From contig JAZDHW010000172.1 of NCBI GenBank assembly GCA_043805555.1, positions 1,689 through 65,688 on the forward strand: DNA of 64,000 bases. Reading direction: 5' to 3'. How positions within the stretch are numbered: the stretch's first letter is position 1; each line of letters begins with the position of its first letter. A program made the position numbers and the translations under genes. Shown here piece by piece: positions 5,977 through 48,663 of the stretch. This DNA comes from Pseudomonadota bacterium (GTDB lineage: Bacteria > Desulfobacterota > Desulfarculia > Desulfarculales > Desulfarculaceae). The notes under the pieces were generated by a model. It was not told the DNA's origin, did no database searches, and saw only the letters and a program-made list of their open reading frames with translations.

Positions 5977-7344
5977 TTAGCTTTTGCGGTAGAGGCTGAA
6001 ATGGCCCATGCGCTTGCGCAGGGTGGGGCGCGAGATGCCCAGGGCCCGGGCGGTGGCCGAGATGTTCCAGTCGTTCTCATTGAGGGCGAAGAGGATGTGC
6101 TGGTGCTCCACCTCCTCCAGGGTGGAGAGATTGGGCCCGGCGGCGGGCGCGGCCGGGCCGGGCTCGGAGGCGGACAGGGCTTCGGTCACCGCCTCGGCCA
6201 AGAGCACCGGGCCGCGGCTGTCCATGGCCGCCCGGGTCAGCACGTTCTTTAGCTCGCGCACGTTGCCCGGCCAGTGGTGGGCGCGCAACTGGTCCATGGC
6301 CGGGCCCTCCACCCGGTTGACGGCGATGGACAGCTCGGCGTTGACCCGGCCCAGGAAGTATTGCACCAGCTTGGGCAGGTCGCTGATGCGCAATCGCAGG
6401 GGCGGCACCTCGATGGCCACCACCTTGAGCCGGAACAGGAGGTCCTGGCGGAAGCGTCCCTGGCGCGCCAGATCGCGCAGGTCGCGGTTGGTGGCGGCGA
6501 TGATGCGGGCCTGGGAGCGCTGCACCTGGGTGCCGCCCACCCGGGTGAACTCGCGGTTTTCCAAAAACCGCAGCAGCTTGGCCTGCAACAAGAGGGGCAG
6601 CTCGCCCACTTCGTCAAAAAAGATGGTGCCCTGGCCGGCCAGCTCCAGGCGGCCCTTCTTGTTTTCCACCGCGCCGGTGAAGGCCCCGCGCTCGTGGCCG
6701 AAAAGCTCGGACTCCATCAGGTTGCCCACCAGGGTGGTGCAATCCACGGTGACAAAGGGCTGGCCCTTGTCCTGGGAGGAATCATGGATCACCCGGGCGA
6801 TGAGGTCCTTGCCGCTGCCGGTCTCGCCGGTGATGAGCACCGTGGCCCGGTTGCGCGAGAGCAGGCCGATGGTCTTGAAGATGGAGTTCATCTCCGGGGT
6901 GTCGCCGATGATGCGCCGGCGCGCGTCGGGCGCCGTCTCCTTGCCGATCACCGGCTGGTGCGACAGGGTGGCGGCGGCGATGTGCAGGGCCTTGGCGATG
7001 ACCCGGTCCAGGTCCGGGGCCTTCAAGGGTTTTTGCAGGTAGTCGTAGGCGCCCAGGCGCATGGCCTCGATGGTGGTCTCCATGTCGTGGAAAGCCGTGA
7101 TCATGATGACCTTGGCCTCGGGGTCCTGGCTGGCGATGCGCGGCAGAAGCTCCAGGCCGGAGATGTCGGGCAGCTTGATGTCCATGATGACCACGGCCGG
7201 CTTGAGCTGGGCCCACAGGGCCAGGCCCTCGCCGCCGCTGCCGGCCGCCCAGACCTGGTAGCCCTTTTCCTTGAGGAACATCTCCAGCGACTCGCGCAGG
7301 GAGTCGTCGTCCTCCACGATGAGGATGCGCTTCATGGCCGCCAT
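5977..7344 (-). CDS. Sigma-54-dependent response regulator (NtrC/AtoC family)
   Basis: REC domain (ILIVEDDD...MDIKLPD), AAA+ domain with GETGSGKD and GAFTGA, and a C-terminal Fis HTH. Confidence 0.9.
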   Translation of the reverse strand: MAAMKRILIVEDDDSLRESLEMFLKEKGYQVWAAGSGGEGLALWAQLKPAVVIMDIKLPDISGLELLPRIASQDPEAKVIMITAFHDMETTIEAMRLGAYDYLQKPLKAPDLDRVIAKALHIAAATLSHQPVIGKETAPDARRRIIGDTPEMNSIFKTIGLLSRNRATVLITGETGSGKDLIARVIHDSSQDKGQPFVTVDCTTLVGNLMESELFGHERGAFTGAVENKKGRLELAGQGTIFFDEVGELPLLLQAKLLRFLENREFTRVGGTQVQRSQARIIAATNRDLRDLARQGRFRQDLLFRLKVVAIEVPPLRLRISDLPKLVQYFLGRVNAELSIAVNRVEGPAMDQLRAHHWPGNVRELKNVLTRAAMDSRGPVLLAEAVTEALSASEPGPAAPAAGPNLSTLEEVEHQHILFALNENDWNISATARALGISRPTLRKRMGHFSLYRKS

Positions 7345-30801: not shown

Positions 30802-31043
30802 GAAAGCCTCCTGGCAGCGGTTGGGCGATTACTGGCCTGTCAAACGGCGGGGTGGTTACTTGCGCCCTGCCCGGCGGTTATGCGGGGTGTGGTGAAGACT
30901 TTCCTGCGCAGGACGTTAATTTCAATATGCCAAAAGCGCCTGCCGCTTGCAACTTGATTTTACTGAGTTTTCAATTGCTTATGTGTTTAATAGTGTTATT
31001 TTAAGCATGTTTGTGCAATTGAGCCGCCGCGCATGGCGAAACC

Positions 31044-31060
31044 ATTGCCCATTGGGCAAT
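31044..31060. repeat. 17-bp perfect palindrome ATTGCCCATTGGGCAAT (copy 1)
   Basis: An identical copy lies at 32718-32734. Confidence 0.9.
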
Positions 31061-31249
31061 GTGCGCAAACGTAGCGTATACCCAGATGGCCACTGTTTAC
31101 TTAGGCCAACGACATTTCGTGATGCTTATGAAGATTCGCAGGAATGCAGGTGCTGCGAGCAGTTTTTGCCTTATATTGGTCTGTAATACATCATTGGCTG
31201 GAGCAAACTATTTGAAACTATCGAATCATTGTTAATGAGTAAGTATGCA

Positions 31250-32602
31250 TTATTCAAACGGTCTTCCGAAATAGGTTAGTACAGCGAGAGCAACGAGGTA
31301 CAAGCTAATTACCGATTGTATGCCGGATACCAAGCGAACCCAACCTGTCGCACGTAATAAATACTCGCGTGGTTGCATGTGGCTCATCCAGGTGCCTACA
31401 TTTAAGTCACGCCATCCAAATCGGAACGCGGAGAGTACAGAAAAATAAAATGAATAAGCTAGCTTATATTTCCATGTTAATGATTTAATTGATTCTGGTG
31501 TGTCAGTCCCTTCATCAAGCCGTATCCGGTCAGGCTGCCAACTGCGCCATATACATCCACCACCTTTCACGTACAATGAGACTAGATATATTAATGCGAA
31601 CGGGATAATTAAATACAATAGATATAGTACTGGCTGGATTGGATACAGCCCCCAACCACAAGTAACCCCAAAAAGTAGTTGTGGGATAAAATTGAGTACA
31701 TCATTGTCTTTAATTATTTCATTACTTTTTATTGCATACGTTAATTCCCGTTCTGATTGTCTCAGCCCATAGGCTATAAATGTATTCCGTAAACCCGCAA
31801 GACCTACAGGAGAGTGGTTATATGTTAACTTATCTAAGTTTTGCGCAGTAGAAATAAATAATGGTGAAGGCAAGGCTTTAGGATCTATATCGAATACCAC
31901 TCCATCCATATTAGCCATAGCAAAACTGGCACCGGTTAAATCGGAATCATAAAATTGAGTATTCTGCAACCTACAGTTATAGAAATTTGCATTCACCAAT
32001 TTTGCTTGTGTGAATACTGCCCCATTACAGTCAGCTTCGCAAAAGTTTGCCCTTGAGGCATCTAATGCAATAAACTTTGTATTTCTCAAATCGGCCTTAT
32101 ATAGCTTTGCGCCTACCATGCTCGCATATTCTAAATTTGCACCTTCTAAGTGAATACCTTCCATGTCTGCATCACAAAACTTCGCCAATCTTAAATCGCG
32201 CAATCTCAGATCAGCACCCCTCAAGTTGGCACCAGAAAAATCAGCCCTTTTTATCTTGTAAGCCTTATTGAACGACTCCTGATCCATTTTTTGAATGATT
32301 AGATTCAAATAACGTCTGGTCTTTGGTCCGCTCGAATACGCTGTCCATACCTCCTTTACCCATGCCTCGTGCGAAGCAATTATGCGATTCAAATCCGTTT
32401 CAGATATGGCTGAACCATCTATTAAGAGTCCCTGCCATTCTGATTTGTGTTTTTGCCCTACAACTTCGCCTGCATTACTCGGGCAGGTACCCAATACGGT
32501 GAATATTGTCACTACTATTAAAAATATTAAGTTCGTTACCGCCGGCATACTTTTCACCTCAATGATCACTATGGCTCCAACCTTCTGGCTCGGGATACCC
32601 AA
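31250..32602 (-). CDS. Pentapeptide-repeat protein with an N-terminal signal/TM segment and a C-terminal membrane domain
   Basis: It has a long run of A(D/N)LxG-type pentapeptides (ADFSGANLRGADLRLRDLRLAKF...) and C-terminal hydrophobic helices. The gene is strikingly AT-rich. The start is 32602 or 32548. Confidence 0.8.
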   Translation of the reverse strand: MGIPSQKVGAIVIIEVKSMPAVTNLIFLIVVTIFTVLGTCPSNAGEVVGQKHKSEWQGLLIDGSAISETDLNRIIASHEAWVKEVWTAYSSGPKTRRYLNLIIQKMDQESFNKAYKIKRADFSGANLRGADLRLRDLRLAKFCDADMEGIHLEGANLEYASMVGAKLYKADLRNTKFIALDASRANFCEADCNGAVFTQAKLVNANFYNCRLQNTQFYDSDLTGASFAMANMDGVVFDIDPKALPSPLFISTAQNLDKLTYNHSPVGLAGLRNTFIAYGLRQSERELTYAIKSNEIIKDNDVLNFIPQLLFGVTCGWGLYPIQPVLYLLYLIIPFALIYLVSLYVKGGGCIWRSWQPDRIRLDEGTDTPESIKSLTWKYKLAYSFYFSVLSAFRFGWRDLNVGTWMSHMQPREYLLRATGWVRLVSGIQSVISLYLVALAVLTYFGRPFE

Positions 32603-32717
32603 GCTAGCAACAGGCTGTGCCTAAAATTACCATCTTCCAGCCATATTTTGTCAATCGAAAAATCATTTCCAGTTAATGTGTCCGATTTCATGACTACTCC
32701 TCGAAATAGCCTCCCCT

Positions 32718-32840: not shown

Positions 32841-32869
32841 TTGACGAACCCGTCCGGCCGTCTTATTAT
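32841..32869 (+). promoter_or_regulatory. Near-consensus sigma-70 promoter of the first DUF134 gene
   Basis: TTGACG, a 17-nt spacer, then TATTAT. Confidence 0.6.
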
Positions 32870-32883
32870 GAACCTAGGTTCAT
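32868..32883. promoter_or_regulatory. 16-bp perfect palindrome overlapping the -10/+1 region (operator candidate)
   Basis: ATGAACCTAGGTTCAT. Confidence 0.5.
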
Positions 32884-32900
32884 AACGAAAGGATCAACCC

Positions 32901-33311
32901 ATGCCCCGCCCCCGCCTTTGCCGCCTGGTGGCCGACACCCCGCCCGTGGACTACTACAAGCCACGCGGGGTGCCCCTGGCCCAGTTGCGCGAGGTGGTCC
33001 TGCCCCTGGAGGGCCTGGAGGCCCTGCGTTTGGTGGAGGTGGAGGGGCTGGACCAGGAGGCGGCCGCGGCGCGCATGGGCGTGTCGCGGCCCACCTTCAC
33101 CCGGGTGCTGGCCGAGGCCCGCCACCTGGTGGCCGTGGCGCTGACCCAGGGCCAGGCCCTGCGCATCGCCGGCGGCGACTACCGCCTGGCCGAGGCCCCG
33201 GCCGGCCAGCCCGACGCCCCCTGCCTGGGGCGTATGGGTCATGGCCGGGGCGGGTTCGGCGGCGGCGGCCACGGGCGCGGACGCGGGCGGGGCCGGGATT
33301 GGCCGGCATGA
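32901..33311 (+). CDS. DUF134 (UPF0251) family putative DNA-binding protein with a Gly/Arg-rich tail
   Basis: The sequence contains MPRPRLCR...YYKPRG..., EALRLVEVEGLDQEAAAARMGVSRPTF and the tail GHGRGGFGGGGHGRGRGRGRD. Confidence 0.8.
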   Translation: MPRPRLCRLVADTPPVDYYKPRGVPLAQLREVVLPLEGLEALRLVEVEGLDQEAAAARMGVSRPTFTRVLAEARHLVAVALTQGQALRIAGGDYRLAEAPAGQPDAPCLGRMGHGRGGFGGGGHGRGRGRGRDWPA

Positions 33312-33341
33312 ACCAGAGCCACCCTAACCAAGGAGGATGAA

Positions 33342-33626
33342 ATGCCTATGCGTGATGGCAGCGGACCCTGGGGCAACGGCCGCCAGGGGCGCGGATTGGG
33401 ACCCTGCGGCGGCGGCCTGGGCGGTCGCGGCGGGGCCGGCCGGGGCGGCGCACGCGGCGCCGGCTTCGGCTTCATCGGCGGCGGCCGCTGGGCGGCCGGG
33501 CCGGTGGCCGGCGGCGCGGAATCGGCCCAGTTGAGCGACCTGGCCCGCCAGGTGGATCAACTGCAGTCCGAGATCAAGGCCCTGCGCCAGAGCCCGTCCA
33601 GCGCCCCGGCCAAGATCGAGGACTAG
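33342..33626 (+). CDS. DUF5320-like protein (Gly/Arg-rich N-terminus, coiled-coil C-terminus)
   Basis: The sequence contains MPMRDGSGPWGNGRQGRGLGPCGGG... and LARQVDQLQSEIKALRQ. A strong RBS (AAGGAGGA) lies upstream. Confidence 0.65.
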   Translation: MPMRDGSGPWGNGRQGRGLGPCGGGLGGRGGAGRGGARGAGFGFIGGGRWAAGPVAGGAESAQLSDLARQVDQLQSEIKALRQSPSSAPAKIED

Positions 33627-33711
33627 GAACCCGAACCACAACCCGATGATGCTCCGGAGCGGGGGCCTGGACGGGCAGGCCCCCGCCGCAAAAAAGACCA
33701 TGATATCCCTA

Positions 33712-33739
33712 TTGACAGCACCGGTTTTGGGATTATATT
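33712..33739 (+). promoter_or_regulatory. Sigma-70 promoter candidate of the second DUF134 unit
   Basis: TTGACA, a 16-nt spacer, then TATATT. Confidence 0.55.
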
Positions 33740-33780
33740 AGTTTTGAGCCTACGCCCATAACATAGCCCAAAGGTAGACG

Positions 33781-34461
33781 ATGCCCCGACCGCGCAAATG
33801 CCGCCTGGTTTCCGCCCGGCCCCTGGTCAACTACTTCAAGCCCCGGGGCATCCCCATGCACGACCTGCAGGAGGTGCGCCTGAGCCTGGAAGGCCACGAG
33901 GCCCTGCGCCTGGCCGACCTGGACGGACTCTGCCGCGACGAGGCCGCGGCGCGCATGGGCGTGTCGCGCCAGACCTTCAGCCGGGTGCTGGTCGAGGCCC
34001 GGCGGGCGGTGGCCGAGGCGGTGGTGGGCGGGCGGGCGCTTTACATCGAGGGCGGGGCCTACCGCCTGCCGGACCAGGCCGCCCCGCCCCAGGACAAGGA
34101 GACAGCCATGAGCAAGATCGCCATCAGCAGCGAGGGCCCCCGCCTGGACGACCTGGTGGACCCGCGTTTCGGCCGCAGCGGCGGCTTTATCATCGTGGAC
34201 ACCCAGAACATGGAGACCACCTACCTGGACAACGGCGCGGCCCAGGCCCGCGGCCAGGGGGCCGGCATCCAGGCCGCCGAGCTGGTGGCCGGGGCCGGGG
34301 CCACGGTGGTGCTCACCGGTTTCGTGGGCCCCAAGGCCTTCGCCGCCCTCCAGGCGGCCGGCGTGGGCGTGGGCCAGGACCTGGGCGGAGTCAGCGTGCG
34401 CGAGGCCGTGCAGCGCTACCTGGACGGCCGGGTGCCCCTGGCCGCCAACCCCAACCGTTAA
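33781..34461 (+). CDS. DUF134 domain fused to a NifX/NifB-C-type (dinitrogenase FeMo-cofactor biosynthesis-like) domain
   Basis: The N-terminus MPRPRKCR...FKPRG...MGVSRQTF is paralogous to 32901-33311. The C-terminus is KIAISSEG...DPRFGRSGGFIIVD...VVLTGFVGPKA. Confidence 0.8.
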   Translation: MPRPRKCRLVSARPLVNYFKPRGIPMHDLQEVRLSLEGHEALRLADLDGLCRDEAAARMGVSRQTFSRVLVEARRAVAEAVVGGRALYIEGGAYRLPDQAAPPQDKETAMSKIAISSEGPRLDDLVDPRFGRSGGFIIVDTQNMETTYLDNGAAQARGQGAGIQAAELVAGAGATVVLTGFVGPKAFAALQAAGVGVGQDLGGVSVREAVQRYLDGRVPLAANPNR

Positions 34462-34510
34462 ACAACCCGGCCCGGCCGCCCCGCTTGGCCGGGCCCCCCG
34501 CAACCCGGAG

Positions 34511-35371
34511 ATGACGACCATGAGCCAAGAACCTTCCGGCGGCGCCTGTGGACACGGCGGCCCCGACCCCGACCAGGACGCCCGCCTCACCGACAACCTG
34601 GCCCGCATCCGTTTCAAGATCCTGGTCATGAGCGGCAAGGGCGGCGTGGGCAAATCCACCGTGGCCGCCTACCTGGCCCTGGGCCTGGCCGCCCGGGGCC
34701 ACTCCGTGGGCCTGATGGACGTGGACCTGCACGGCCCCTCCATCCCCCGCATGCTGGGGCTCACCGGCCACGCCCGGGTGGACGAGGCCAGCCAGGGCAT
34801 CGAACCCATGGTGACCAGCCACGGGCTCAAGGCGCTCAGCGTGGAGATGCTGATGCCCGACCGGGAAAGCTCGGTCATCTGGCGCGGGCCGCTCAAGATC
34901 GGCGTGATCAAGCAGTTCATCTCCGACGTCAACTGGGGCCGGCTGGACTTTTTGGTCATCGACTCCCCGCCCGGCACCGGCGACGAGCCGCTCACCGTTG
35001 CCCAGAGCGTGGAAGGCGCTCTGGCCGTGGTGGTGACCACCCCCCAGGAGATCGCCCTGGCCGACGTGCGCAAGTCCCTGGACTTCTGCCGCCAGTTGGA
35101 GATGCCGGTGCTGGGGGTGGTGGAGAACATGGCCGGGCTCACCTGCCCCCACTGCGGCCAGCCGGTGGACCTTTTGGGCCAGGGCGGCGGCCAGGCCCTG
35201 GCCGAGCGCCTGGGCCTGGACTTCCTGGCCCGCCTGCCCTGGGACCCGCGCCTGGTCAAGGCCAGCGACGCCGGCCGGCCCCTGGATCTGGAGCAGGACG
35301 ACAGCCCGGCCGCCGCGCCCTACCGCGCCCTGGTGGCCGCGGTGCTGGCGCGCACCGTGGAGCGGGGCTAG
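34511..35371 (+). CDS. Mrp/NBP35 (ApbC) family Fe-S cluster carrier ATPase
   Basis: The sequence contains ILVMSGKGGVGKST, VIDSPPGTGDE and the CPHCG motif. The start is 34511 or 34520. Confidence 0.85.
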   Translation: MTTMSQEPSGGACGHGGPDPDQDARLTDNLARIRFKILVMSGKGGVGKSTVAAYLALGLAARGHSVGLMDVDLHGPSIPRMLGLTGHARVDEASQGIEPMVTSHGLKALSVEMLMPDRESSVIWRGPLKIGVIKQFISDVNWGRLDFLVIDSPPGTGDEPLTVAQSVEGALAVVVTTPQEIALADVRKSLDFCRQLEMPVLGVVENMAGLTCPHCGQPVDLLGQGGGQALAERLGLDFLARLPWDPRLVKASDAGRPLDLEQDDSPAAAPYRALVAAVLARTVERG

Positions 35372-35374
35372 GCC

Positions 35375-36265
35375 ATGATCATCGCGGTGGCCAGCGGCAA
35401 GGGCGGCACCGGCAAGACCACGGTGACTGCGTCCCTGGCCTGGGTCTGGGGCCGGCCCCTGGTGGCGGTAGACCTGGACGTGGAGGAGCCCAACCTCCAT
35501 TTGTTCCTGAAGCCCGAGCCGGGAGCCGAGCAGACCGCCTGGATGGAGGTGCCCCAGGCCGACGAGTCCCTGTGCACCGCCTGCGGGGCCTGCGCCGAGA
35601 TCTGCCAGTTCAAGGCAATCAGCCTCTTGGGCGAGACCCTGCTGACCTTTCCGGAGATGTGCCACGGCTGCGGCGGCTGCCTGGCCGTCTGCCCTTCCGG
35701 GGCGCTGACCCCAGGCAAGCGCGAGCTGGGCAGCATCCTCTGGGGACGGGCCGGGGACATCGCCTTTTTGGGCGGCCGGCTCCGGGTGGGCGAGGCCATG
35801 AGCCCGCCCCTGATGCGCCAGGTGCGCGCGGCCCTGGCCGAGCTCTTGGCCGGCGGCGGGGCCGACGCCATCATCGACGCCCCGCCGGGGGTGAGCTGCC
35901 CGGCGGTGAACGCGGTCATGGACGCCGACCTGATCCTCTTGGTCACCGAGCCCACGCCCTTTGGCCTGCACGACCTGGCCCTGGCCCACCAGGCCTTCAC
36001 GCCGCTGGGTAAGCCCATGGCGGTGGTGGTCAACCGGGCCGGCCTGGGCGACCAGGGCGTGCAGGACTACTGCCGCCGCCAGGGCCTGGCCATCCTGGCC
36101 GAGATCCCTTTCCAGCGCGAGGCGGCCGCGGCCTATGCCCGCGGCGAGGTGCTGGCCGCGGCCTCGGCCGAGCACCGCGCCCGCTTCCACAACCTGGCCC
36201 TGGAGCTGCGCCGGCTGCTGGACCTCTCCCAGCAACGGCCGGGCAAGGCGGTGACCAATGCCTGA
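35375..36265 (+). CDS. MinD/ParA-type P-loop ATPase with an inserted 2x[4Fe-4S] ferredoxin domain
   Basis: IAVASGKGGTGKTT, CTACGACAEIC and CHGCGGCLAVCP. Confidence 0.8.
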   Translation: MIIAVASGKGGTGKTTVTASLAWVWGRPLVAVDLDVEEPNLHLFLKPEPGAEQTAWMEVPQADESLCTACGACAEICQFKAISLLGETLLTFPEMCHGCGGCLAVCPSGALTPGKRELGSILWGRAGDIAFLGGRLRVGEAMSPPLMRQVRAALAELLAGGGADAIIDAPPGVSCPAVNAVMDADLILLVTEPTPFGLHDLALAHQAFTPLGKPMAVVVNRAGLGDQGVQDYCRRQGLAILAEIPFQREAAAAYARGEVLAAASAEHRARFHNLALELRRLLDLSQQRPGKAVTNA

Positions 36266-37146
36266 GATCGTGGTCCTGAGCGGCAAGGGCGGCACCGGCA
36301 AGACCTCGCTGACCGCCGCCTTCGCCCATCTGGCCAACGCGCCGGTGATCTGCGACCTGGACGTGGACGCGCCCGACCTGCACCTGCTGCTGCAGCCCCG
36401 GCCCGAGAGCGACCACGAGTTCCGCTCGGGCAACGAGGCGGTCATCGACCCCGAGCTGTGCCAGGCCTGCGGAGAGTGCCTGGAGCGCTGCCGCTACGAG
36501 GCCATCGCCCTGCGCGAGGGCGTCTATCATGTCGACCCCCTGCGCTGCGAAGGCTGCAAGGTCTGCGTGCAGTTCTGCCCGGCCGGGGCCATCGCTTTCC
36601 CCGTGCGCTACTGCGGCGACTGGCACATCTCCGCGACCCGCTTCGGGCCCCTGGTCCACGCCCCAGCTTTTTCCCGGCCAGGAGAACTCCGGCCGCCTGG
36701 TGGCATTGCTGCGCCAGGAGGCCAAGACCCTGGCCAAGAGCCTGGGCCGCGAGCTGATCCTGTGCGACGGCGCGCCGGGCATCGGCTGCCCGGTCATCAG
36801 CTCGCTGAGCGGGGTGGATCTCGCCGTGGCGGTGTGCGAGCCCACGCCCTCGGGCCTGCACGACCTGAAGCGCCTGGCCCAACTGAGCGCCCATTTCCGG
36901 GTGCCGCTGGCGGTGATCGTCAACAAGGCCGACCTGAGCCCGGAGCGCACCAGCCAGATCGAGGACTTCTGCCGCCAGGACGGCCTGGCCCTCGTCGCCT
37001 GCCTGCCCTTCAGCCGGGCGGTGGTGGAGGCCATGCTGCACGCCCAGGCGGTGACCGAGTACGAACAAGGTGAACTGAGTCAAAGTCTGCGCCGGGCCTG
37101 GGAGGTCATCACCACGATGGCCGCCTCCCGGAGCCGGGCCCATTGA
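36258..37146 (+). pseudogene. Second MinD/ParA-ferredoxin ATPase, interrupted by a +1 frameshift near 36660-36664
   Basis: Frame A (36258-) encodes VVLSGKGGTGKTS, CQACGECLERC, CEGCKVCVQFCP and ...RFGPLVHA. Frame B continues with QLFPGQENSGRLVALLRQ...DGAPGIGCPV... up to 37146. Removing one C from the run GCCCCA restores a single ORF. Confidence 0.7.
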
Positions 37147-37181
37147 ACTATGTCCCCTGTTTTTTCACCAAGGAGCCGAAG

Positions 37182-37559
37182 ATGAAAACGGTGGTTGCCT
37201 TCCCATCCAGCCAGCCCGGCGGCCTGGACGCCGCCCTGGGCGCCCATTTCGGTCACTGCGACCTCTACACCGTCATCACCCTGGAGGATGAGACCATCTC
37301 CGACGTGAAGCTCTTACCCAACGTGCCCCATCAGCAGGGCGGCTGCCTGGCCCCGGTGCAGTTCCTGGCCCAGAACGGCGTCCAGGTGCTGGTGGCCGGC
37401 GGCATGGGACTGCGGCCGCTCATGGGTTTCAACCAGGTGGGCATCGCGGTCTACTATGGCGGCGGCCACGCCAGCGTCTCCGCTGCGGCCACGGCCCTGG
37501 CCCAGGGGCAACTGCCCCGCTTCAGCCAGGACTTCACCTGCGGCGGCGGCGGCCACTAG
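37182..37559 (+). CDS. NifX/NifB-C-type (FeMo-cofactor biosynthesis-like) domain protein
   Basis: The sequence contains VAFPSSQPGGLDAALGAHFGHCDLYTV and VLVAGGMG. An AGGAG RBS precedes ATG 37182. Confidence 0.75.
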   Translation: MKTVVAFPSSQPGGLDAALGAHFGHCDLYTVITLEDETISDVKLLPNVPHQQGGCLAPVQFLAQNGVQVLVAGGMGLRPLMGFNQVGIAVYYGGGHASVSAAATALAQGQLPRFSQDFTCGGGGH

Positions 37560-37727
37560 GTGCGTGTCGGAGAAAGCCATCCATGGCTTTTTCCTCTTGG
37601 AACTTGCCAAAAGTGAACTTTGGCAAGTTCTCGGAATGGCGCCAAAAATTAATTTGGCGCCATTCCGGGCGGGCCGTCCATGGCCCGCTCGGAAGCCTGT
37701 CGGAGGATTACTCCGACAGGCTCCTAG
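37557..37727 (+). mobile_element. 171-bp MITE-like element, copy A
   Basis: It is bounded by CTAG...CTAG. The imperfect terminal inverted repeats are CTAGGTGCGTGTCGGAGAAAGCC and the reverse complement CTAGGAGCCTGTCGGAGTAATCC. The interior is five consecutive hairpins. Confidence 0.75.
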
Positions 37728-37804: not shown

Positions 37805-38053
37805 ATGCCCATCTATGACGTTAAATGCCTCCGCTGCGGCCGGGTGGGGGAGGTGCTGGTTACAGGCGCCAGCGCCCCCCTGCCCTGTCCGCATTGCGGC
37901 AGCGAACAGACCGAAAAGCTTGTCTCGGCTCCCAGCGCCCTCACCGGCCGCGCGGCCACCCTGCGGCCGGGGCCAGCCGACCATGGCTGCTGTGGGAGCC
38001 GGCCCCAGGATGCCGGCTGCGCCGGCCCCGGCTCCTGCTGCGGCCGGGCCTAG
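37805..38053 (+). CDS. FmdB-family zinc-ribbon protein
   Basis: The sequence contains MPIYDVKCLRCG and CPHCGS, with a Cys-rich tail. A GAGGAG RBS lies upstream. Confidence 0.7.
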   Translation: MPIYDVKCLRCGRVGEVLVTGASAPLPCPHCGSEQTEKLVSAPSALTGRAATLRPGPADHGCCGSRPQDAGCAGPGSCCGRA

Positions 38054-38062
38054 GCGGTTGCC

Positions 38063-38428
38063 ATGACCAAGGTGCTGTTGGTGGGCCGCAATCCGGGCGG
38101 GCTTTCCGCCCTGGCCGCGGCCCTGAGCGAGACCGCGGAGGTGGACGTGCGCTGGGCCGAGGGCGCCAGTCCGGCCCTGGACCAGGCGCGCCAATGGCGG
38201 CCCCACCTGGCCGTGCTGGACGACGGCCTGGACCGTGAGGGCCCCTGGCCTTTGATCCGCGCGCTGCTGGCGGTGGACGCCTTCCTCAACACCGCGGTGG
38301 TCAGCGCGCTGGAGTCCGAGGAGTTCCACGAGGCAGGCGAGGGCCTGGGCATCCTGGCCCAACTGCCGCCCGCGCCCGGCCCGGCCGAGGCTGCCTGGCT
38401 GCTCTACCACCTGCGGGCGCTGGGCTGA
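38063..38428 (+). CDS. Atypical stand-alone receiver (CheY-like) domain protein
   Basis: It has KVLLVGRN (no N-terminal acidic pair), HLAVLDD (putative acceptor Asp) and TAVVSAL. Confidence 0.5.
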   Translation: MTKVLLVGRNPGGLSALAAALSETAEVDVRWAEGASPALDQARQWRPHLAVLDDGLDREGPWPLIRALLAVDAFLNTAVVSALESEEFHEAGEGLGILAQLPPAPGPAEAAWLLYHLRALG

Positions 38429-38493
38429 TAGGTGGCTCCGGTTGTTTGGACAGAATTGCTGAATCCATAAGTGGAGCCCTGCATTTTTCCATC

Positions 38494-38664
38494 TAGGTGT
38501 GTGTCGGAGAAAGCCATCCATGGCTTTCTCCTCTTGGAACTTGCCAAAAGTTAATTTTGGCAAGTTCTCGGAATGGCGCCAAAAATTAATTTGGCGCCAT
38601 TCCGGGCGGGCCGTCCATGGCCCGCTCGGAAGCCTGTCGGAGGATTACTCCGACAGGCTCCTGG
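38494..38664 (+). mobile_element. 171-bp MITE-like element, copy B
   Basis: It is near-identical to copy A and in the same orientation. Its right end is CTGG instead of CTAG. Confidence 0.75.
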
Positions 38665-38725: not shown

Positions 38726-39805
38726 CTATTGGCGGATGGTGGTGAAGAGCCAGAGGCCCAGCAGGCTGAACAGGCCGTTGGGCAGCCAGACGGCCAGGAA
38801 GGGCGGCAGCACCCCGGAGTAGCCGAAGATGCTGCGCACGTAGGAGAAGCTGACCCAGTAGAGCAGGGCCACCCCCATGCCCACCACCACGCCCAGGGCC
38901 AGAGATTGGCCTTTTTCCTTCATCAGCGCCAGGGGGATGCCCACCAGGGCCATGATCAGGCAGACGAAGGGGAAGCTGAGCTTGGCCTGCAAATCCACCC
39001 GGTAGCGGCGCGAGTCGTAGCCCTCCTCCTCGATTTTCTGCACGTAGCGTATCAGCTCGCCCAGGCTCATCTCCTCGCTGGGCTTGGCCAGGCGGGTGAA
39101 GTCCGAGGGCCGCTCGGGCAGATCCACCTCCTGCTCATCGAAGGGCTTGGCCGAGTAGCCGCCCTCGGCCAGGCGCTCCTGCAGCAGCCCCGAGAAAAAC
39201 ACCCAGCGCCCGCCCAGGAAACGGGCCCGGCGGGCGTCCACCCGCTGGGCCAGGTTGAATTCCTTGTCGAACCGGTAGTAGGCCACGTCGGAGAGCGACT
39301 GGCTGTCCGGGTCGTAGAAGCCCACCCGGTAGATGGAGTTCTGCCCCTTGTACCAGAACTTTTCCTTGTGGATGAACTGGCCGGGGCGCTTCTCCACCAG
39401 GACCTCCCAGATGAAGTTGGTCTTGGACTTGGTGCGCGGGATCACGGTCTCGTTGAGCATGGCCACGGCCAGGGTCAGCGCTAGGCTGATGAGCAGGATG
39501 GGCAGGGTGAAGCGGAAGACGCTGACCCCGCTGGACTTGATGGCCACGATCTCGTTGCGCTTGCCCATGAGCCCCAAGGTGATGACGGTGCTCATCAGCA
39601 CCGCCACCGGCACCATCAGGGCGGTGATCTCCGGAATCTGGAGCATGAAGAAGGTGAGCATGGCCGGCGCGGCCACCCCGGCCTCCTGGAAGTTGTCCAC
39701 CTTCTCGATGAAGTCGAAGATGGTGAACAGGGCCACGAAGCCCACCACCATCAGGGCGAAGAGCTTGAGGAACTCGCGGGAGATGTACAGGGCCAGGATG
39801 CGCAC
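38726..39805 (-). CDS. lptG: LPS export ABC permease LptG
   Basis: It has the YjgP/YjgQ-type layout, MRILALYISREFLKLF..., and is adjacent to lptF. Confidence 0.85.
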   Translation of the reverse strand: MRILALYISREFLKLFALMVVGFVALFTIFDFIEKVDNFQEAGVAAPAMLTFFMLQIPEITALMVPVAVLMSTVITLGLMGKRNEIVAIKSSGVSVFRFTLPILLISLALTLAVAMLNETVIPRTKSKTNFIWEVLVEKRPGQFIHKEKFWYKGQNSIYRVGFYDPDSQSLSDVAYYRFDKEFNLAQRVDARRARFLGGRWVFFSGLLQERLAEGGYSAKPFDEQEVDLPERPSDFTRLAKPSEEMSLGELIRYVQKIEEEGYDSRRYRVDLQAKLSFPFVCLIMALVGIPLALMKEKGQSLALGVVVGMGVALLYWVSFSYVRSIFGYSGVLPPFLAVWLPNGLFSLLGLWLFTTIRQ

Positions 39806-39808
39806 GGC

Positions 39809-40996
39809 CTAGTTCACCCCCGCCCCGGCCCGTCCCCGGGCCCGCAGCCGGCTGATCAGGGCCGGGATCTTGTTTAGGTTGTCCAGGAGGGGGATGGGGG
39901 CCTCGCGCCGCTCGCGGTTGAACATCACCAGGCCCAGCAGGGCGAAGATGACGTTGGGCACCCACATGCCCACCTTGGGCGGATAGGCCCCGCTGACCCC
40001 AAAGGACCAGGCGGCCGAGAGCATGAGGTAGTAGGTGAAAAAGACCACCAGGGCCACGGCCACGCCCCAGGAGCGGCCGGAGCGGCTGTGGCTGCCCAAG
40101 GGCAGGCCGATGAGCGCCATGACCAGGCAGGAGAAGGGCAGGGTGAACTTCTTTTGCAGCTCCATGTCCAGCAGGTAATAGCGCTTGCTGCCCGGCGACT
40201 CCTTGGTCATGGCCTCCACAAGCTCGTCCAGCATCATTTCTTTCTCGTGCTTGCTGGTGCGCTGGGCCCCGCCGAAGCCGGGGGCGGCCATGGTCACGTC
40301 GTAGCTCTGGAACTGGGCGGTCTGGGCGGTCTTGAGCTGGGCCCCCACCCCGTGGATGGTGCCGTCATACAGGCGCACGGTGATCTTGCCGCCGGTGACC
40401 GGGAAGATGCGGCCGCGCTTGGCCACCACGGTGTAGGCCCGGGTGGGGTCGCGCTCGTCGACGATGAACACGTCCTGCATCTGGCCGTCGCCGGGCAGGC
40501 GGTTGATATAGATGACCAGGCCGGGGAAGTTGTCCAGGAACACGCGCTCTTTGAGCGCCAGGTCGGCCTTGGCCTGGGCCACGGTGAAGATGAGGTTCTC
40601 GAACTTGTGGTTGCCCCAGGGCAGGGCCCAGATGGCCAGCACGCTGGTGGCGGCCCAGGCCAGGAGCGCCAGGGCGGCCACCGGCGGCACCAGTTGCATC
40701 AGGCCCACGCCGGCGGCCTTGAGCGCGGTGATCTCGTTGTCGCCCGAGAGCCGCAAAAAGGCCAGCAGCACCCCCAGCAGGGTGGCCATGGGCAGGGTGA
40801 AGACGAAAAGATAGGGCAGGGTGTAGGAGAGCAGGCGGCCCACCACGTCCAGGCCCACCCCCCGGCTGACCACCAGGTCGGTCAGCTCCATGATCTTGGC
40901 CAGCAGCAGGACAAAGGTGAAGACGCCCAGGCTCACGAAAAACGGCCCCAGCATCTCCCTAAAGAGGTAACGATGTATTATCCTGGTTCCCAGCAT
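39809..40996 (-). CDS. lptF: LPS export ABC permease LptF
   Basis: The sequence begins MLGTRIIHRYLFREMLGPFF.... ATG 40996 is preferred over the 41095 track start. Confidence 0.85.
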   Translation of the reverse strand: MLGTRIIHRYLFREMLGPFFVSLGVFTFVLLLAKIMELTDLVVSRGVGLDVVGRLLSYTLPYLFVFTLPMATLLGVLLAFLRLSGDNEITALKAAGVGLMQLVPPVAALALLAWAATSVLAIWALPWGNHKFENLIFTVAQAKADLALKERVFLDNFPGLVIYINRLPGDGQMQDVFIVDERDPTRAYTVVAKRGRIFPVTGGKITVRLYDGTIHGVGAQLKTAQTAQFQSYDVTMAAPGFGGAQRTSKHEKEMMLDELVEAMTKESPGSKRYYLLDMELQKKFTLPFSCLVMALIGLPLGSHSRSGRSWGVAVALVVFFTYYLMLSAAWSFGVSGAYPPKVGMWVPNVIFALLGLVMFNRERREAPIPLLDNLNKIPALISRLRARGRAGAGVN

Positions 40997-41043
40997 GGCA
41001 GGGAGTCTAAAGGCTTGGGGGGATTTTGTAAAGGAGGACGGGG

Positions 41044-42084
41044 ATGAGCCTGCGCCAGGAGCTTGAGGCCCGCGAGGAGCAGTGGCTGTCGCCACACGCC
41101 GCCCGCTCGGGTAAAAGCCGCGGCCGGCTGCGGGCCGAGCCCGAATGCAGCCTGCGCCCGGCGTTCCAGCACGACCGCGACCGCATCCTCTACGCCAAGG
41201 CCTTCCGCCGCCTGAAGCACAAGACCCAGGTCTTCCTGGCCCCCACCGGCGACCATTACCGCACCCGGCTCACCCACACCCTGGAGGTGGCCCAGATCGC
41301 CCGCACCCTGGCCCGCAGCCTGCGGCTCAACGAGGACCTGACCGAGGCCATCGCCCTGGGCCACGACCTGGGCCACACGCCTTTCGGCCACGCCGGCGAG
41401 AAGGTGCTGGACCAACTGCTGCCCGGCGGCTTCCGCCACTGGGAGCAGTCGCTCAGGGTGGTGGACGTGCTGGAAAAAGACGGCCGGGGCCTCAACCTGA
41501 CCTTCGAGGTGCGCATGGGCATCCTAGCCCATTCCAAGGGCCGGGGGCGTTTCCTGCCGGAGCCGGGCCAGGAGCCGGACGTGACCCTGGAGGCCCAGGT
41601 GGTGCGGGCGGCCGACGTCATCGCCTACATCGCCCACGACACCGACGACGCGGTGCGCGGGGCGGTCATCGGCCAGGACGACCTGCCCCAGGTGGTGCTG
41701 GAGGTGCTGGGCCCGCGCCTGAGCCGCCAGATCGACACCATGGTGCGCGACCTGCTGACCCAGAGCCTGGCCGTGGGCGGCGGCCGCCTGGTGATGAGCC
41801 CCACGGTGGAGGAGGCCATGTGGGCCTTGCGCGATTTCCTCTACCGGCGCGTCTACGACAATTACGACGTCCACGCGGACTTCATCAAGGCCAGCAAGGT
41901 GATCCAGGAGTTGTTCGGCCATTTGCTGGACAACGACGACTTTTTCCAGACCCAGATCGGCCCGCCCCCGGCCGGGGACGAACGGGCCCGGGCCGCGGCC
42001 GACTATGTGGCCGGCATGACCGACCGCTACGCCCTGCAACTTTATGACGAGACATTCCTGCCCCGGCCCTGGGGGCGCTTTTAA
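41044..42084 (+). CDS. dGTPase-like HD-domain triphosphohydrolase
   Basis: The motifs are FQHDRDRILY, RTRLTHTLEVAQI and GHDLGHTPFGH. An AGGAGGA RBS lies upstream. Confidence 0.85.
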   Translation: MSLRQELEAREEQWLSPHAARSGKSRGRLRAEPECSLRPAFQHDRDRILYAKAFRRLKHKTQVFLAPTGDHYRTRLTHTLEVAQIARTLARSLRLNEDLTEAIALGHDLGHTPFGHAGEKVLDQLLPGGFRHWEQSLRVVDVLEKDGRGLNLTFEVRMGILAHSKGRGRFLPEPGQEPDVTLEAQVVRAADVIAYIAHDTDDAVRGAVIGQDDLPQVVLEVLGPRLSRQIDTMVRDLLTQSLAVGGGRLVMSPTVEEAMWALRDFLYRRVYDNYDVHADFIKASKVIQELFGHLLDNDDFFQTQIGPPPAGDERARAAADYVAGMTDRYALQLYDETFLPRPWGRF

Positions 42085-48495: not shown

Positions 48496-48663
48496 TTGCG
48501 TGTCGGAGAAAGCCATTCATGGCTTTCTCCTCTTGGAACTTGCCAAAAGTGAATTTTGGCAAGTTCTCGGAATGGCGCCAAAAATTAATTTGGCGCCATT
48601 CCGGGCGGGCCGTCCATGGCCCGCTCGGAAGCCTGTCGGAGGATTACTCCGACAGGCTTCTAG
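48493..48663 (+). mobile_element. 171-bp MITE-like element, copy C
   Basis: It is near-identical to copies A and B and bounded by CTAG...CTAG. Its first TAG is the stop codon of the upstream gene. Confidence 0.75.

What the first reader, a model, noticed from the sequence alone, without database searches (positions are those of the whole stretch)
32841..37559. DUF134 / DUF5320 / NifX-like / Mrp / MinD-ferredoxin cluster: a putative metallocluster-handling system of unknown function
Seen in the sequence: there are two promoter-led units. Unit 1 is a DUF134 putative DNA-binding protein followed by a DUF5320-like Gly/Arg-rich coiled-coil protein. Unit 2 has five genes: a DUF134 domain fused to a NifX/NifB-C-type domain, an Mrp/NBP35 ATPase, two MinD/ParA ATPases each with an inserted 2x[4Fe-4S] ferredoxin domain (the second frameshifted), and a stand-alone NifX-like protein (HFGHC motif). 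Established knowledge: NifX/NafY-type domains bind FeMo-cofactor precursors, and Mrp/NBP35 proteins carry Fe-S clusters. The organism shows no nitrogenase genes in this window. Inference: this is a dedicated system for assembly or trafficking of an Fe-S or heterometal cluster, autoregulated by DUF134 proteins. One of those DUF134 domains is physically fused to the cluster-binding module, so it could sense cluster load. The client enzyme is unknown. The Mo/Fe-S enzyme MOP lies only ~2 kb away, across an apparently inserted AT-rich island.
Basis: partly seen in the sequence, partly recalled or inferred. Interest (0 to 1): 0.8.

Follow-up and report, generated by a model that had tools for sequence, protein, structure and literature searches.

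The report
Orange-protein (ORP) complex operon, self-regulated variant
This is not an unknown system but the 'orange protein' metalloprotein-complex gene cluster already described in sulfate-reducing bacteria, here in a widespread variant that has not been described in the papers I could search, where a DNA-binding domain is fused to the orange protein and apparently controls the operon itself.

Summary
In detail: all seven ORFs, their domains, both sigma70-type promoters and the frameshift are present. The interpretation missed the identity. The 'NifX-like' domain fused to DUF134 matches the Desulfovibrio gigas orange protein (PDB 2WFB, E 4.6e-44, model TM 0.96). The Mrp best matches NCBIfam 'MrpORP'. 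The two MinD-ferredoxin ATPases and the HFGHC protein fit Orp3/Orp4/Orp5. So this is the known ORP complex cluster, whose physiological role is still unclear. In the published in vitro assays MrpORP transferred its Fe-S clusters to aconitase and to the Orp3-Orp4-Orp8 proteins themselves. The MOP link fails: 1 of 80 related loci, a 39% paralogue. The core order recurs in all 80 related loci and extends to 38428 (Zn-ribbon, receiver-like protein). Three features add to the published picture. First, these loci use sigma70 promoters, not the sigma54/OrpR control of D. vulgaris. Second, each promoter is overlapped by a paralogue-specific palindrome: O1 at standalone DUF134 genes (32/41, 0/81 at fusions) and O2 at fusion genes (69/81, 0/41). 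This supports DUF134 autoregulation. Third, an invariant internal ATG with an embedded GGAG (73/82 loci vs 5.7% background, two codon phases) suggests the fusion gene also yields free ORP. The orp4 frameshift is one extra C. Verdict: new variant of a known kind; moderate interest.

The parts
32841..32869 (+). P1: sigma70-type promoter of unit 1 (TTGACG-17-TATTAT)
   Evidence: 10/12 match; 0.3 such sites expected in the region. The same TTGAC-17-TAnnnT layout lies upstream of standalone DUF134 genes in relatives.
32866..32885 (.). O1: perfect 20-bp palindrome TTATGAACCTAGGTTCATAA overlapping the -10 of P1; putative operator of the standalone DUF134 paralogue
   Evidence: Unique in the 64-kb window. 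An O1-type palindrome sits at the same position in 32/41 standalone-DUF134 upstream regions and in 0/81 fusion-gene upstream regions; shuffles give 0.3.
32901..33311 (+). Standalone DUF134/UPF0251 HTH protein (136 aa), paralogue of Orp7, with a Gly/Arg-rich tail
   Evidence: Pfam PF02001 2.7e-20. 78% identical to the Desulfarculaceae orthologue. Its recognition helix reads SR-P-TF-T-R; the standalone class reads SR-P-TF-[S/C]-R.
33342..33626 (+). DUF5320 small protein (94 aa): an N-terminal MPxRDGSGPxGxG...C Gly/Arg-rich part and a C-terminal coiled coil
   Evidence: Pfam PF17253 3.1e-9. Similar small genes lie between the standalone DUF134 and the fusion gene in 18 of 82 unique loci, always at that position.
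33712..33739 (+). P2: sigma70-type promoter of the ORP operon (TTGACA-16-TATATT)
   Evidence: 11/12 match. TTGAC is present upstream of the fusion gene in 78/81 loci; shuffles give 7.5. No sigma54 -24/-12 motif was found.
33742..33761 (.). O2: imperfect palindrome TTTTGAGC-CTAC-GCCCATAA just downstream of the -10 of P2; putative operator of the DUF134-ORP fusion
   Evidence: An O2-type palindrome occurs in 69/81 fusion-gene upstream regions and 0/41 standalone upstream regions; shuffles give <1. It starts 25-35 nt after the -35 hexamer. Nearly identical in the closest relative L006.
33781..34461 (+). DUF134 (Orp7-like) fused to the orange protein ORP (Orp8), 226 aa
   Evidence: Pfam PF02001 plus PF02579. 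Residues 109-226 match D. gigas ORP 2WFB with E 4.6e-44. The AF2 model has pLDDT 83; TM 0.96 and rmsd 0.8 A to 2WFB; the DUF134 core resembles sigma70 region 4; the linker 93-109 is disordered. The same architecture occurs in >2000 database proteins and >=569 genome loci.
34096..34110 (+). Embedded ribosome-binding site AAGGAG (34096-34101), a 6-nt spacer, and the invariant internal ATG (34108-34110) at the first residue of the ORP domain
   Evidence: Met110 is invariant in the alignment. GGAG lies within -16..-5 of that ATG in 73/82 unique loci against 5.7% at other in-frame positions. It occurs in two codon phases (56/17), and 77 distinct pentapeptides precede the Met.
34511..35371 (+). Mrp/NBP35 Fe-S carrier ATPase (286 aa): the P-loop domain of MrpORP/Orp9 without its C-terminal Di-Nase domain
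   Evidence: NCBIfam NF041136 MrpORP 365 bits (cut-off 450), profile positions 2-251 of 365; ApbC scores only 222 bits. Pfam PF10609 1.8e-93. The SGKGGVGKS and CPHC motifs are read from the translation. It sits inside the operon only in the closest Desulfarculaceae loci L001-L009.
35375..36265 (+). Orp3/Orp4-type MinD-like P-loop ATPase with an inserted 2x[4Fe-4S] ferredoxin domain (296 aa)
   Evidence: Pfam CbiA plus 2 Fer4. Two CxxCxxCxxxC(P) motifs are in the translation. Conserved directly after the ORP gene in all 80 loci.
36258..37146 (+). Second Orp3/Orp4-type ATPase, interrupted by a +1 frameshift (extra C in the CCCC run at 36661-36664)
   Evidence: The two frames map to residues 1-138 and 130-291 of the orthologue. 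The DNA alignment shows one extra C against L006, L004 and L001. The repaired 295-aa protein has CbiA plus 2 Fer4. Relatives carry it intact.
37179..37559 (+). Orp5-like stand-alone Di-Nase/NifX-fold protein (126 aa) with AHFGHC and a C-terminal CGGGGH
   Evidence: Pfam PF02579 6.9e-17. It matches the Di-Nase part of the MrpORP profile, positions 273-359, at 2.6e-13. Conserved after the second ATPase in 70 of the 80 loci fetched; the other 10 end at or just after the ATPase genes.
37805..38053 (+). Zn-ribbon protein (82 aa), a conserved accessory gene of the cluster
   Evidence: Pfam Zn_ribbon_8 4.2e-11. Found at the same position in 31 of 80 related loci, at 45-80% identity in 30 of them and as a partial match in one.
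38063..38428 (+). Receiver-like (degenerate CheY-fold) protein, 121 aa; conserved last gene of the cluster
   Evidence: tblastn 42% identity to the PF00072 protein of L004. A homologue follows the cluster in most of the 80 loci, including 62 of the 70 that reach the NifX-like gene, and also in standalone-ORP loci L086 and L087. The window copy has no Pfam hit at E<=1e-3.

Best explanation
The locus is the gene cluster of the ORP (orange protein) complex, an anaerobe-specific multi-metalloprotein complex first described in Desulfovibrio. Here it is arranged as one co-directional operon in a Desulfarculaceae-like genome.

Gene content. It comprises a DUF134 (Orp7-like) domain fused to ORP (Orp8), then an Mrp/NBP35 Fe-S carrier (the P-loop part of Orp9/MrpORP). 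Next come two paralogous MinD-like ATPases with inserted 2x[4Fe-4S] ferredoxin domains (Orp3/Orp4 type), an Orp5-like Di-Nase protein, a Zn-ribbon protein and a receiver-like protein. A DUF134 + DUF5320 regulatory unit precedes the operon.

Shown elsewhere for D. vulgaris. MrpORP transfers Fe-S clusters in vitro to the apo-Orp3-Orp4-Orp8 proteins (Orp3 and Orp4 carry the ferredoxin-like motifs). Orp3, Orp4, Orp5, Orp8 and Orp9 form one complex. The ORP homologue (studied in D. gigas) holds a non-covalent Mo-Cu-S cluster. The physiological role is unresolved; cell division has been proposed.

Inferred here. This variant uses sigma70 promoters instead of the sigma54/OrpR/IHF control of D. vulgaris. 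Each promoter is overlapped at -10/+1 by its own palindromic operator. The standalone DUF134 represses P1 through TTATGAAC-N4-GTTCATAA. The DUF134-ORP fusion represses P2 through TGAGC-N4-GCYCA. An RBS and ATG embedded in the linker let the same mRNA also produce free ORP. The ORP domain tethered to the repressor then acts as the sensor, by binding the metal cluster or by being captured by the Orp3/Orp4 ATPases, and so couples operon expression to cluster or partner availability.

In this particular sequence the second ATPase gene carries a 1-nt insertion. This is either an assembly error or a recent inactivation.
For: Identity. Residues 109-226 of the fusion match D. gigas ORP (2WFB) at E 4.6e-44, and the model has TM 0.96 and rmsd 0.8 A to it. 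The best NCBIfam hit of the Mrp is MrpORP, and the last NifX-like protein matches MrpORP's Di-Nase part. The domain content of the two ATPases equals the published description of Orp3/Orp4 (PMC6345978). The gene names orp3-5 and orp7-9 are described in PMC8359166.

Conservation. The order fusion-ATPase-ATPase-NifX-(NifU)-(Zn ribbon)-receiver-like recurs in all 80 loci fetched from Desulfarculales, Desulfobacterales, Syntrophobacterales and Desulfovibrionales, as far as each contig reaches. It also recurs in loci with an unfused ORP.

Regulation. Both promoters are confirmed, and TTGAC is present upstream in 78/81 loci. O2 occurs in 69/81 fusion upstream regions and 0/41 standalone ones; O1 occurs in 32/41 standalone and 0/81 fusion ones; shuffles give <1. 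Many loci carry a second operator copy upstream of -35. The paralogues differ systematically at two recognition-helix positions, P vs H/Q and S/C vs G. The DUF134 core superposes on sigma70 region 4 HTHs at 0.7-0.9 A. No sigma54 motif is present. By contrast, the unfused Desulfovibrio sp. X2 locus has a PAS-EBP and a TGGCAT-N5-CTGCT sigma54 promoter.

Internal start. The ATG is invariant. GGAG lies upstream of it in 73/82 loci against 5.7% background, in two codon phases with a 5-11 nt spacer.
Against: No experiment on this variant exists. The operator regexes were derived from the same loci they were counted on. DUF134 DNA binding has never been shown in the papers I could search. The embedded GGAG could in principle be a relic of an ancestral two-gene arrangement, or a pause site. 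The Mrp here lacks the Di-Nase domain that defines MrpORP and scores below the NCBIfam cut-off (365 vs 450). No OrpR gene lies next to the locus, whereas the relative L004 has both an EBP and the DUF134 genes, so an additional layer of control is possible. One complex subunit gene is frameshifted. The function of the complex itself is unknown even in the model organism.
Confidence: 0.8

Rival explanations
1. One reading: a general-purpose assembly or trafficking line for an Fe-S or heterometal cofactor that serves an external client enzyme, for example the neighbouring Mo/Fe-S aldehyde oxidoreductase MOP.
For: Mrp/NBP35 and NifX-fold proteins are cluster carriers elsewhere. MOP lies ~2 kb upstream. 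The closest relative L006 has a MOP-like gene, a cysteine-desulfurase-like gene and a DsrC-like gene just upstream of its ORP operon. A NifU_N scaffold-like gene follows the cluster in many relatives. MrpORP can also load aconitase in vitro (PMC6345978).
Against: A MOP homologue is near the cluster in only 1 of 80 loci, and at 39% identity it is a paralogue. O1 and O2 occur nowhere else in the window, so there is no sign of co-regulation. MOP is on the opposite strand, across a foreign AT-rich island. In D. vulgaris the Orp proteins are subunits of one complex, and they are among the recipients of MrpORP's clusters in vitro (PMC6345978).
Confidence: 0.12
2. The cluster is a cell-division or positioning device. 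The two MinD/ParA-type ATPases act as a spatial regulator of the septum, with redox-active ferredoxin inserts, as proposed for D. vulgaris. The metal-cluster proteins are only accessory.
For: MinD/ParA-family fold. The literature reports morphological defects when orpR is inactivated and a polar localisation of MrpORP (PMC6345978, PMC8359166).
Against: This is compatible with, rather than opposed to, the best explanation, and it addresses only the end function. No min, fts or par genes accompany the cluster in the 80 loci, whose conserved neighbours are NifU_N, a Zn ribbon and a receiver-like protein. The authors themselves call the role 'still unclear'.
Confidence: 0.3
3. In this genome the locus is decaying. 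It is a pseudogenised remnant (frameshifted ATPase, lost NifU_N and OrpR neighbours, inserted repeats and a foreign island) and no longer functions.
For: There is a +1 frameshift in the second ATPase. NifU_N is present in the closest relatives but absent here, with a 170-nt repeat element at its place. An AT-rich island sits where L004 has an EBP.
Against: All other genes are intact, at 69-92% identity to relatives. Both promoters and operators are perfectly preserved; O1 is a perfect 20-bp palindrome. A single extra base in a homopolymer run is a typical assembly error, and the downstream frame has accumulated no further damage.
Confidence: 0.15

Closest known systems
ORP complex cluster of Desulfovibrio vulgaris Hildenborough (orp7-orp8-orp9 and orp5-orp4-orp3, DVU2103-DVU2109; Fievet 2011, Pardoux 2019, Fievet 2021)
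   Same: It has the same protein set: a DUF134-type Orp7 (by my recollection of the DVU2107 annotation), ORP/Orp8, an Mrp/NBP35, two MinD-like ATPases with 2x[4Fe-4S] inserts, and a second Di-Nase protein. The order DUF134-ORP-Mrp matches orp7-orp8-orp9.
   Different: Here there is one co-directional operon instead of two divergent ones, and Orp7 and Orp8 are fused in one ORF with an internal RBS. The Mrp lacks the Di-Nase domain. There are sigma70 promoters with DUF134-type palindromes instead of sigma54 promoters, OrpR (site GGGCGYRTTTTGCGCCC) and IHF. There is an extra DUF134+DUF5320 unit, and Zn-ribbon and receiver-like genes follow the operon.
Orange protein ORP of Desulfovibrio (Megalodesulfovibrio) gigas, PDB 2WFB
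   Same: About 62-70% identical over the whole 117-residue domain, with the same fold.
   Different: The D. gigas protein was isolated and crystallised as a free ~12-kDa protein. Here the domain is the C-terminal half of a 226-aa ORF. Mo-Cu cluster binding is untested for this homologue.
MrpORP (Orp9), NCBIfam NF041136
   Same: It is the best-scoring family for the Mrp. The P-loop and the CxxC bridging-cluster motif are present, and the gene lies in an ORP cluster.
   Different: Only profile positions 2-251 of 365 are matched, below the curated cut-off (365 vs 450 bits). The Di-Nase domain is missing from the Mrp. A free Di-Nase protein with the same HFGHC motif is encoded three genes downstream.
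NifX/NafY/NifB-C FeMo-cofactor carriers
   Same: Same Pfam family PF02579 and fold.
   Different: Similarity is distant (NafY E 1.3e-3; NifX in NifEN E 1.5e-3). No nif genes accompany the cluster in the related loci examined.
MinD/ParA and CooC-type deviant Walker-A ATPases
   Same: Deviant Walker A (SGKGGTGKT) and the CbiA/MinD fold.
   Different: A 2x[4Fe-4S] ferredoxin domain is inserted after the P-loop. Scores are far below the MinD equivalog cut-offs: 55 vs 202 bits for minD_arch (TIGR01969) and 37 vs 213 for minD_bact (TIGR01968).

Membership tests
ORP (orange protein) complex gene cluster | Encodes an orthologue of the D. gigas/D. vulgaris orange protein (Orp8) | tested here: met
   2WFB E 4.6e-44 over residues 109-226; TM 0.96, rmsd 0.8 A.
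ORP (orange protein) complex gene cluster | Two paralogous MinD-like ATPases, each with two [4Fe-4S] ferredoxin motifs (Orp3, Orp4) | tested here: met
   CbiA plus 2 Fer4 in both. The second is frameshifted in this sequence. Direct comparison with the DVU2103/DVU2104 sequences was not possible.
ORP (orange protein) complex gene cluster | A second small Di-Nase/NifX-fold protein (Orp5) | tested here: met
   PF02579 6.9e-17; HFGHC motif. Orthology to DVU2105 is not directly tested.
ORP (orange protein) complex gene cluster | Mrp/NBP35 protein of the MrpORP type with two domains (P-loop plus Di-Nase) | tested here: not met
   NF041136 scores 365 bits, below the cut-off of 450; only the P-loop part (2-251/365) is matched. 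The Mrp is in the operon only in the closest relatives.
ORP (orange protein) complex gene cluster | Sigma54 promoters activated by the PAS-EBP OrpR with IHF | tested here: not met
   No -24/-12 motif upstream of either unit or of 80 related fusion genes. There are sigma70-type promoters instead. No adjacent EBP; the only EBP-like match in the window is at 5992-6912, 43% identical over the AAA+ part.
ORP (orange protein) complex gene cluster | The proteins form one physical complex; ORP binds a Mo-Cu-S cluster | not testable with these tools
   Needs pull-down and spectroscopy.
DUF134/UPF0251 (PF02001) putative DNA-binding proteins | Match to PF02001 above the gathering score; HTH fold | tested here: met
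   73 and 79 bits against a cut-off of 27. The model core superposes on sigma70 region 4 at 0.7-0.9 A over 46-48 residues.
NifX/NafY FeMo-co carrier system | Genomic association with nitrogenase/nif maturation genes | tested here: not met
   None of the conserved neighbours in the 80 loci is a nif gene other than a NifU_N-domain protein. The rest of the window was not scanned for nif genes.
MinD septum-site ATPase | Reaches the MinD equivalog score; min operon context | tested here: not met
   TIGR01969 55 bits vs 202; TIGR01968 37 bits vs 213. No minC/minE nearby.

The most novel reading that the evidence does not exclude
In most Thermodesulfobacteriota the ORP operon may be governed by a so far uncharacterised family of transcription factors, DUF134/UPF0251, rather than by sigma54/OrpR. 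Two paralogues would each recognise their own palindrome (TTATGAAC-N4-GTTCATAA versus TGCTCA-N2-TGAGCA / TGAGC-N4-GCYCA). One of them would be made from a dual-product gene: the full-length ORF gives a repressor whose sensor domain is the orange protein itself, and an embedded RBS gives free orange protein from the same mRNA. The complex would then titrate or metallate its own repressor. If true, this gives the first DNA target and first physiological logic for DUF134, and a direct experimental handle on what the orange protein senses.
Probability: 0.5. Interest if true: 0.55.

Novelty: new variant of a known kind. Interest (0 to 1): 0.42.

Why it matters
The ORP complex is conserved in strict anaerobes, and its function has stayed unclear since the orange protein was described more than twenty years ago. 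Recognising this locus as ORP removes a false 'unknown system'. The comparative results turn vague ideas into bench-ready tests. They give two precise operator sequences, two paralogous candidate regulators with diverged recognition helices, and a predicted internal translation start. If DUF134 proteins bind these sites, a large domain-of-unknown-function family gains a function. The signal that releases the ORP-fused repressor (Mo/Cu-S cluster, Fe-S cluster, or the Orp3/Orp4 ATPases) would then point to what the complex does.

Tried and rejected
1. Fievet 2011, the primary description of the cluster (PMC3133258), is not held. The DUF134 identity of DVU2107/Orp7 therefore rests on my recollection plus the orp7-orp8-orp9 order in PMC8359166.
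The closest relatives are Desulfarculaceae MAGs.
3. I tried to learn whether the D. gigas ORP gene is itself a fusion. That would have tested the internal start against a protein purified from cells. The search with the 2WFB sequence returned only the PDB construct and many free ~120-aa ORPs, so the question is unresolved.
4. A sigma54 promoter search upstream of 81 fusion genes gave one weak hit, so sigma54 control of this variant was rejected.
5. MOP co-occurrence was rejected.
6. Programmed frameshifting at orp4 was rejected. There is no stop or slippery context, the 0 frame stays open for ~400 nt, and relatives have a plain in-frame gene.
7. Literature searches for DUF134, DUF5320, UPF0251, COG1342, COG1149 and COG1433 found nothing functional.
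8. A PDB sequence search found no solved DUF134 structure.
9. The Rfam scan of the region gave only sub-threshold RsmW-like hits in a repeat element.

Full report
WHAT IS THERE. In a ~70% GC window the + strand between 32841 and 38428 carries nine co-directional genes. Pfam and NCBIfam give the following:
- 32901-33311: DUF134.
- 33342-33626: DUF5320.
- 33781-34461: DUF134 plus Nitro_FeMo-Co.
- 34511-35371: Mrp/NBP35.
- 35375-36265: MinD/CbiA with two Fer4 motifs.
- 36258-37146: a second such gene, split over two frames.
- 37179-37559: Nitro_FeMo-Co with an AHFGHC motif.
- 37805-38053: Zn ribbon.
- 38063-38428: a receiver-like protein.

They are TTGACG-17-TATTAT at 32841-32869 and TTGACA-16-TATATT at 33712-33739; 4 sites were found where 0.3 were expected. 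The frameshift is one extra C in the run at 36661-36664 compared with three relatives. Deleting it restores a 295-aa protein with the full domain set.

WHAT IT IS. The domain fused to DUF134 is not a generic NifX. Residues 109-226 match the orange protein (ORP) of Desulfovibrio gigas, PDB 2WFB, with E 4.6e-44. An AlphaFold model (pLDDT 83) superposes on 2WFB with TM 0.96 and rmsd 0.8 A.

The Mrp scores best against NCBIfam 'MrpORP' (365 bits, against 222 for ApbC). The last NifX-like protein matches the Di-Nase part of that same profile.

The literature describes the ORP complex of D. vulgaris Hildenborough as Orp3 and Orp4 (paralogues, each with two [4Fe-4S] ferredoxin motifs), Orp5 (homologous to a small [2Fe-2S] protein), Orp8 (ORP, Mo-Cu-S cluster) and Orp9 (MrpORP). 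These are encoded by the operons orp5-orp4-orp3 and orp7-orp8-orp9 (PMC6345978, PMC8359166). The window holds that same set, in the order orp7::orp8 - mrp - ATPase - ATPase - Di-Nase. The locus is thus the ORP cluster. It is a known system, although the authors still call its role 'unclear' and only putatively linked to cell division.

CONSERVATION. The DUF134-ORP fusion is common. There are 2246 database hits, and the best 120 cover 96-100% of the query with both domains. At least 569 genome loci carry it. The nearest relatives are Desulfarculaceae MAGs (80% and ~70% identity), so the window is probably from that group rather than from Desulfovibrio.

In the 80 loci fetched, the order fusion - ATPase - ATPase - NifX-like - [NifU_N] - [Zn ribbon] - receiver-like is kept throughout, as far as each contig reaches. 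These loci come from Desulfarculales, Desulfobacterales, Syntrophobacterales and Desulfovibrionales, including Bilophila wadsworthia and D. piger. The Mrp lies inside the operon only in the closest Desulfarculaceae (L001-L009).

A standalone DUF134 precedes the fusion in about half of the loci (41 of 82 unique). A DUF5320-like gene lies between the two in 18. Loci with an unfused ORP (Desulfovibrio sp. X2, a Desulfobaccales MAG) keep the same downstream order.

A MOP-like gene is near the cluster in only one locus, at 39% identity. The MOP link is not supported.

REGULATION. No sigma54 -24/-12 motif occurs upstream of either unit or of 80 related fusion genes, and no OrpR gene is adjacent. The only EBP-like match in the window is at 5992-6912.

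Instead, 78 of 81 fusion genes have TTGAC at the -35 position (7.5 in shuffles). In 67-69 of 81, a palindrome starts 25-35 nt after it, overlapping the -10/+1 region (<1 in shuffles). This 'O2' motif reads TGCTCA-N2-TGAGCA or TGAGC-N4-GCYCA. The window has TTTTGAGCCTACGCCCATAA at 33742-33761.

Upstream of standalone DUF134 genes the same layout carries a different palindrome, 'O1', TTATGAAC-N4-GTTCATAA. The window has a perfect 20-mer at 32866-32885.

The two motifs are mutually exclusive. O1 occurs in 32/41 standalone and 0/81 fusion upstream regions. O2 occurs in 0/41 and 69/81. Many loci carry a second copy upstream of -35. Each motif occurs only once in the 64-kb window.

The two DUF134 classes differ systematically at two positions at the start of the recognition helix. 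Standalone proteins read SR-P-TF-[S/C]-R and fusions read SR-[H/Q]-TF-G-R. The DUF134 core models as a sigma70-region-4 HTH, with rmsd 0.7-0.9 A to SigR, SigD and sigmaE region 4.

Taken together this is good phylogenetic-footprint evidence that each DUF134 paralogue represses its own promoter. That step is inferred, not shown, and the motif patterns were derived from the same data. By contrast, the unfused locus of Desulfovibrio sp. X2 has a PAS-EBP and a canonical TGGCAT-N5-CTGCT promoter, as in D. vulgaris.

A SECOND PRODUCT FROM THE FUSION GENE. The Met that begins the ORP domain is invariant in the alignment, while the linker before it varies in length and sequence and is predicted to be disordered.

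GGAG lies within -16..-5 of this ATG in 73 of 82 unique loci, against 5.7% at other in-frame positions of the same ORFs. The motif falls in two different codon phases (56 and 17) with a 5-11 nt spacer, and 77 different pentapeptides precede the Met. The window has AAGGAG at 34096-34101 and the ATG at 34108.

The constraint is therefore on the nucleotides, as expected for a ribosome-binding site. The reading frame is also kept open across linkers of very different length, so the full-length protein is selected for as well. I infer that the gene gives both a DUF134-ORP protein and free ORP. I could not test this against the D. gigas gene.

HOW IT MOST LIKELY WORKS. Shown elsewhere: in vitro, MrpORP transfers its Fe-S clusters to apo-aconitase and to the apo-Orp3-Orp4-Orp8 proteins, of which Orp3 and Orp4 carry the ferredoxin-like motifs. 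In cells, Orp3, Orp4, Orp5, ORP and MrpORP form one complex (PMC6345978).

Inferred here: P1 and P2 are autoregulated by their first gene products. The ORP domain tethered to the P2 repressor reports either metal-cluster occupancy or capture by the ATPases. This sets the level of free ORP and of the rest of the complex. The role of DUF5320, the Zn-ribbon protein and the degenerate receiver-like protein is open.

PECULIARITIES OF THIS COPY. Four features distinguish it:
- orp4 is frameshifted. A single base in a homopolymer is compatible with an assembly error.
- NifU_N, present in the closest relatives, is missing, and a 170-nt repeat sits at its place.
- A GC-poor island with a pentapeptide-repeat membrane protein lies where the relative L004 has an EBP.
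- The Mrp lacks the Di-Nase domain.

VERDICT. The finding is real and well described, but it is the known ORP system, not a new one. Its regulation and gene architecture form a variant that appears undescribed in the papers I could search. The variant gives testable predictions for the DUF134 family. Interest is moderate.

Noticed in passing
window 37556-37725, 38493-38662 and around 48568-48603: A ~170-nt intergenic element built of four consecutive short hairpins occurs in three copies. The first two copies are 98% identical; for the third only one 36-nt hairpin was matched. Two copies bracket the Zn-ribbon and receiver-like genes, and one sits where relatives have NifU_N. There are weak sub-threshold Rfam hits to RsmW (CsrB/Rsm clan) on the minus strand: 35 bits against a gathering score of 52.
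   Followed up: partly
window 30900-32700: An AT-rich island (GC ~0.40 against ~0.70) encodes a 450-aa pentapeptide-repeat protein (31250-32602, minus strand); its hydrophobic C-terminal stretches in the translation suggest a membrane protein (my reading, no topology prediction run). It is probably horizontally acquired. It lies between MOP and the ORP locus, where the relative L004/L007 has a PAS-sigma54 activator.
   Followed up: no
L006 3507-7825: In the closest relative (80% identical fusion protein), the ORP operon is preceded by a MOP-like aldehyde oxidoreductase (39% identical to the window's MOP), a DsrC/TusE-like ORF and a class-V aminotransferase/cysteine-desulfurase-like ORF (the last two identified only by eye from the ORF translations). 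It has no standalone DUF134/DUF5320 unit.
   Followed up: partly
window 33781-33804 and related loci: The N-terminal arm MPRPRKCR of the fusion paralogue has an invariant Cys7 (81/81), whereas only 20/39 standalone DUF134 proteins keep it. This could be a metal or redox ligand, or part of a DNA-contacting arm.
   Followed up: no
L009 7229-7810, L010 7222-7806, L025 7219-7781; L086 6059-6900: Some loci carry two tandem DUF5320-like Gly/Arg-rich genes. The sigma54-type Desulfovibrio sp. X2 locus has no DUF134, but it has two Gly/Arg/Cys-rich small proteins between the activator and ORP.
   Followed up: no
window 38063-38428: The conserved last gene is receiver-like but degenerate. It has no Pfam hit at E<=1e-3, and by eye the N-terminal acidic pair of a receiver domain appears to be replaced, whereas its L004 homologue still hits Response_reg. 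Homologues end ORP clusters of both the fused and the unfused type.
   Followed up: partly
window 5992-6912 (minus strand): A sigma54-activator-like gene, 43% identical over the AAA+ part to the EBP that flanks the ORP cluster in L004. It lies ~26 kb from the ORP locus and is not obviously an OrpR orthologue.
   Followed up: no
window 38726-41095 (minus strand): Intact LptF and LptG permease genes lie immediately downstream, convergent with the ORP cluster. They are ordinary neighbours.
   Followed up: no
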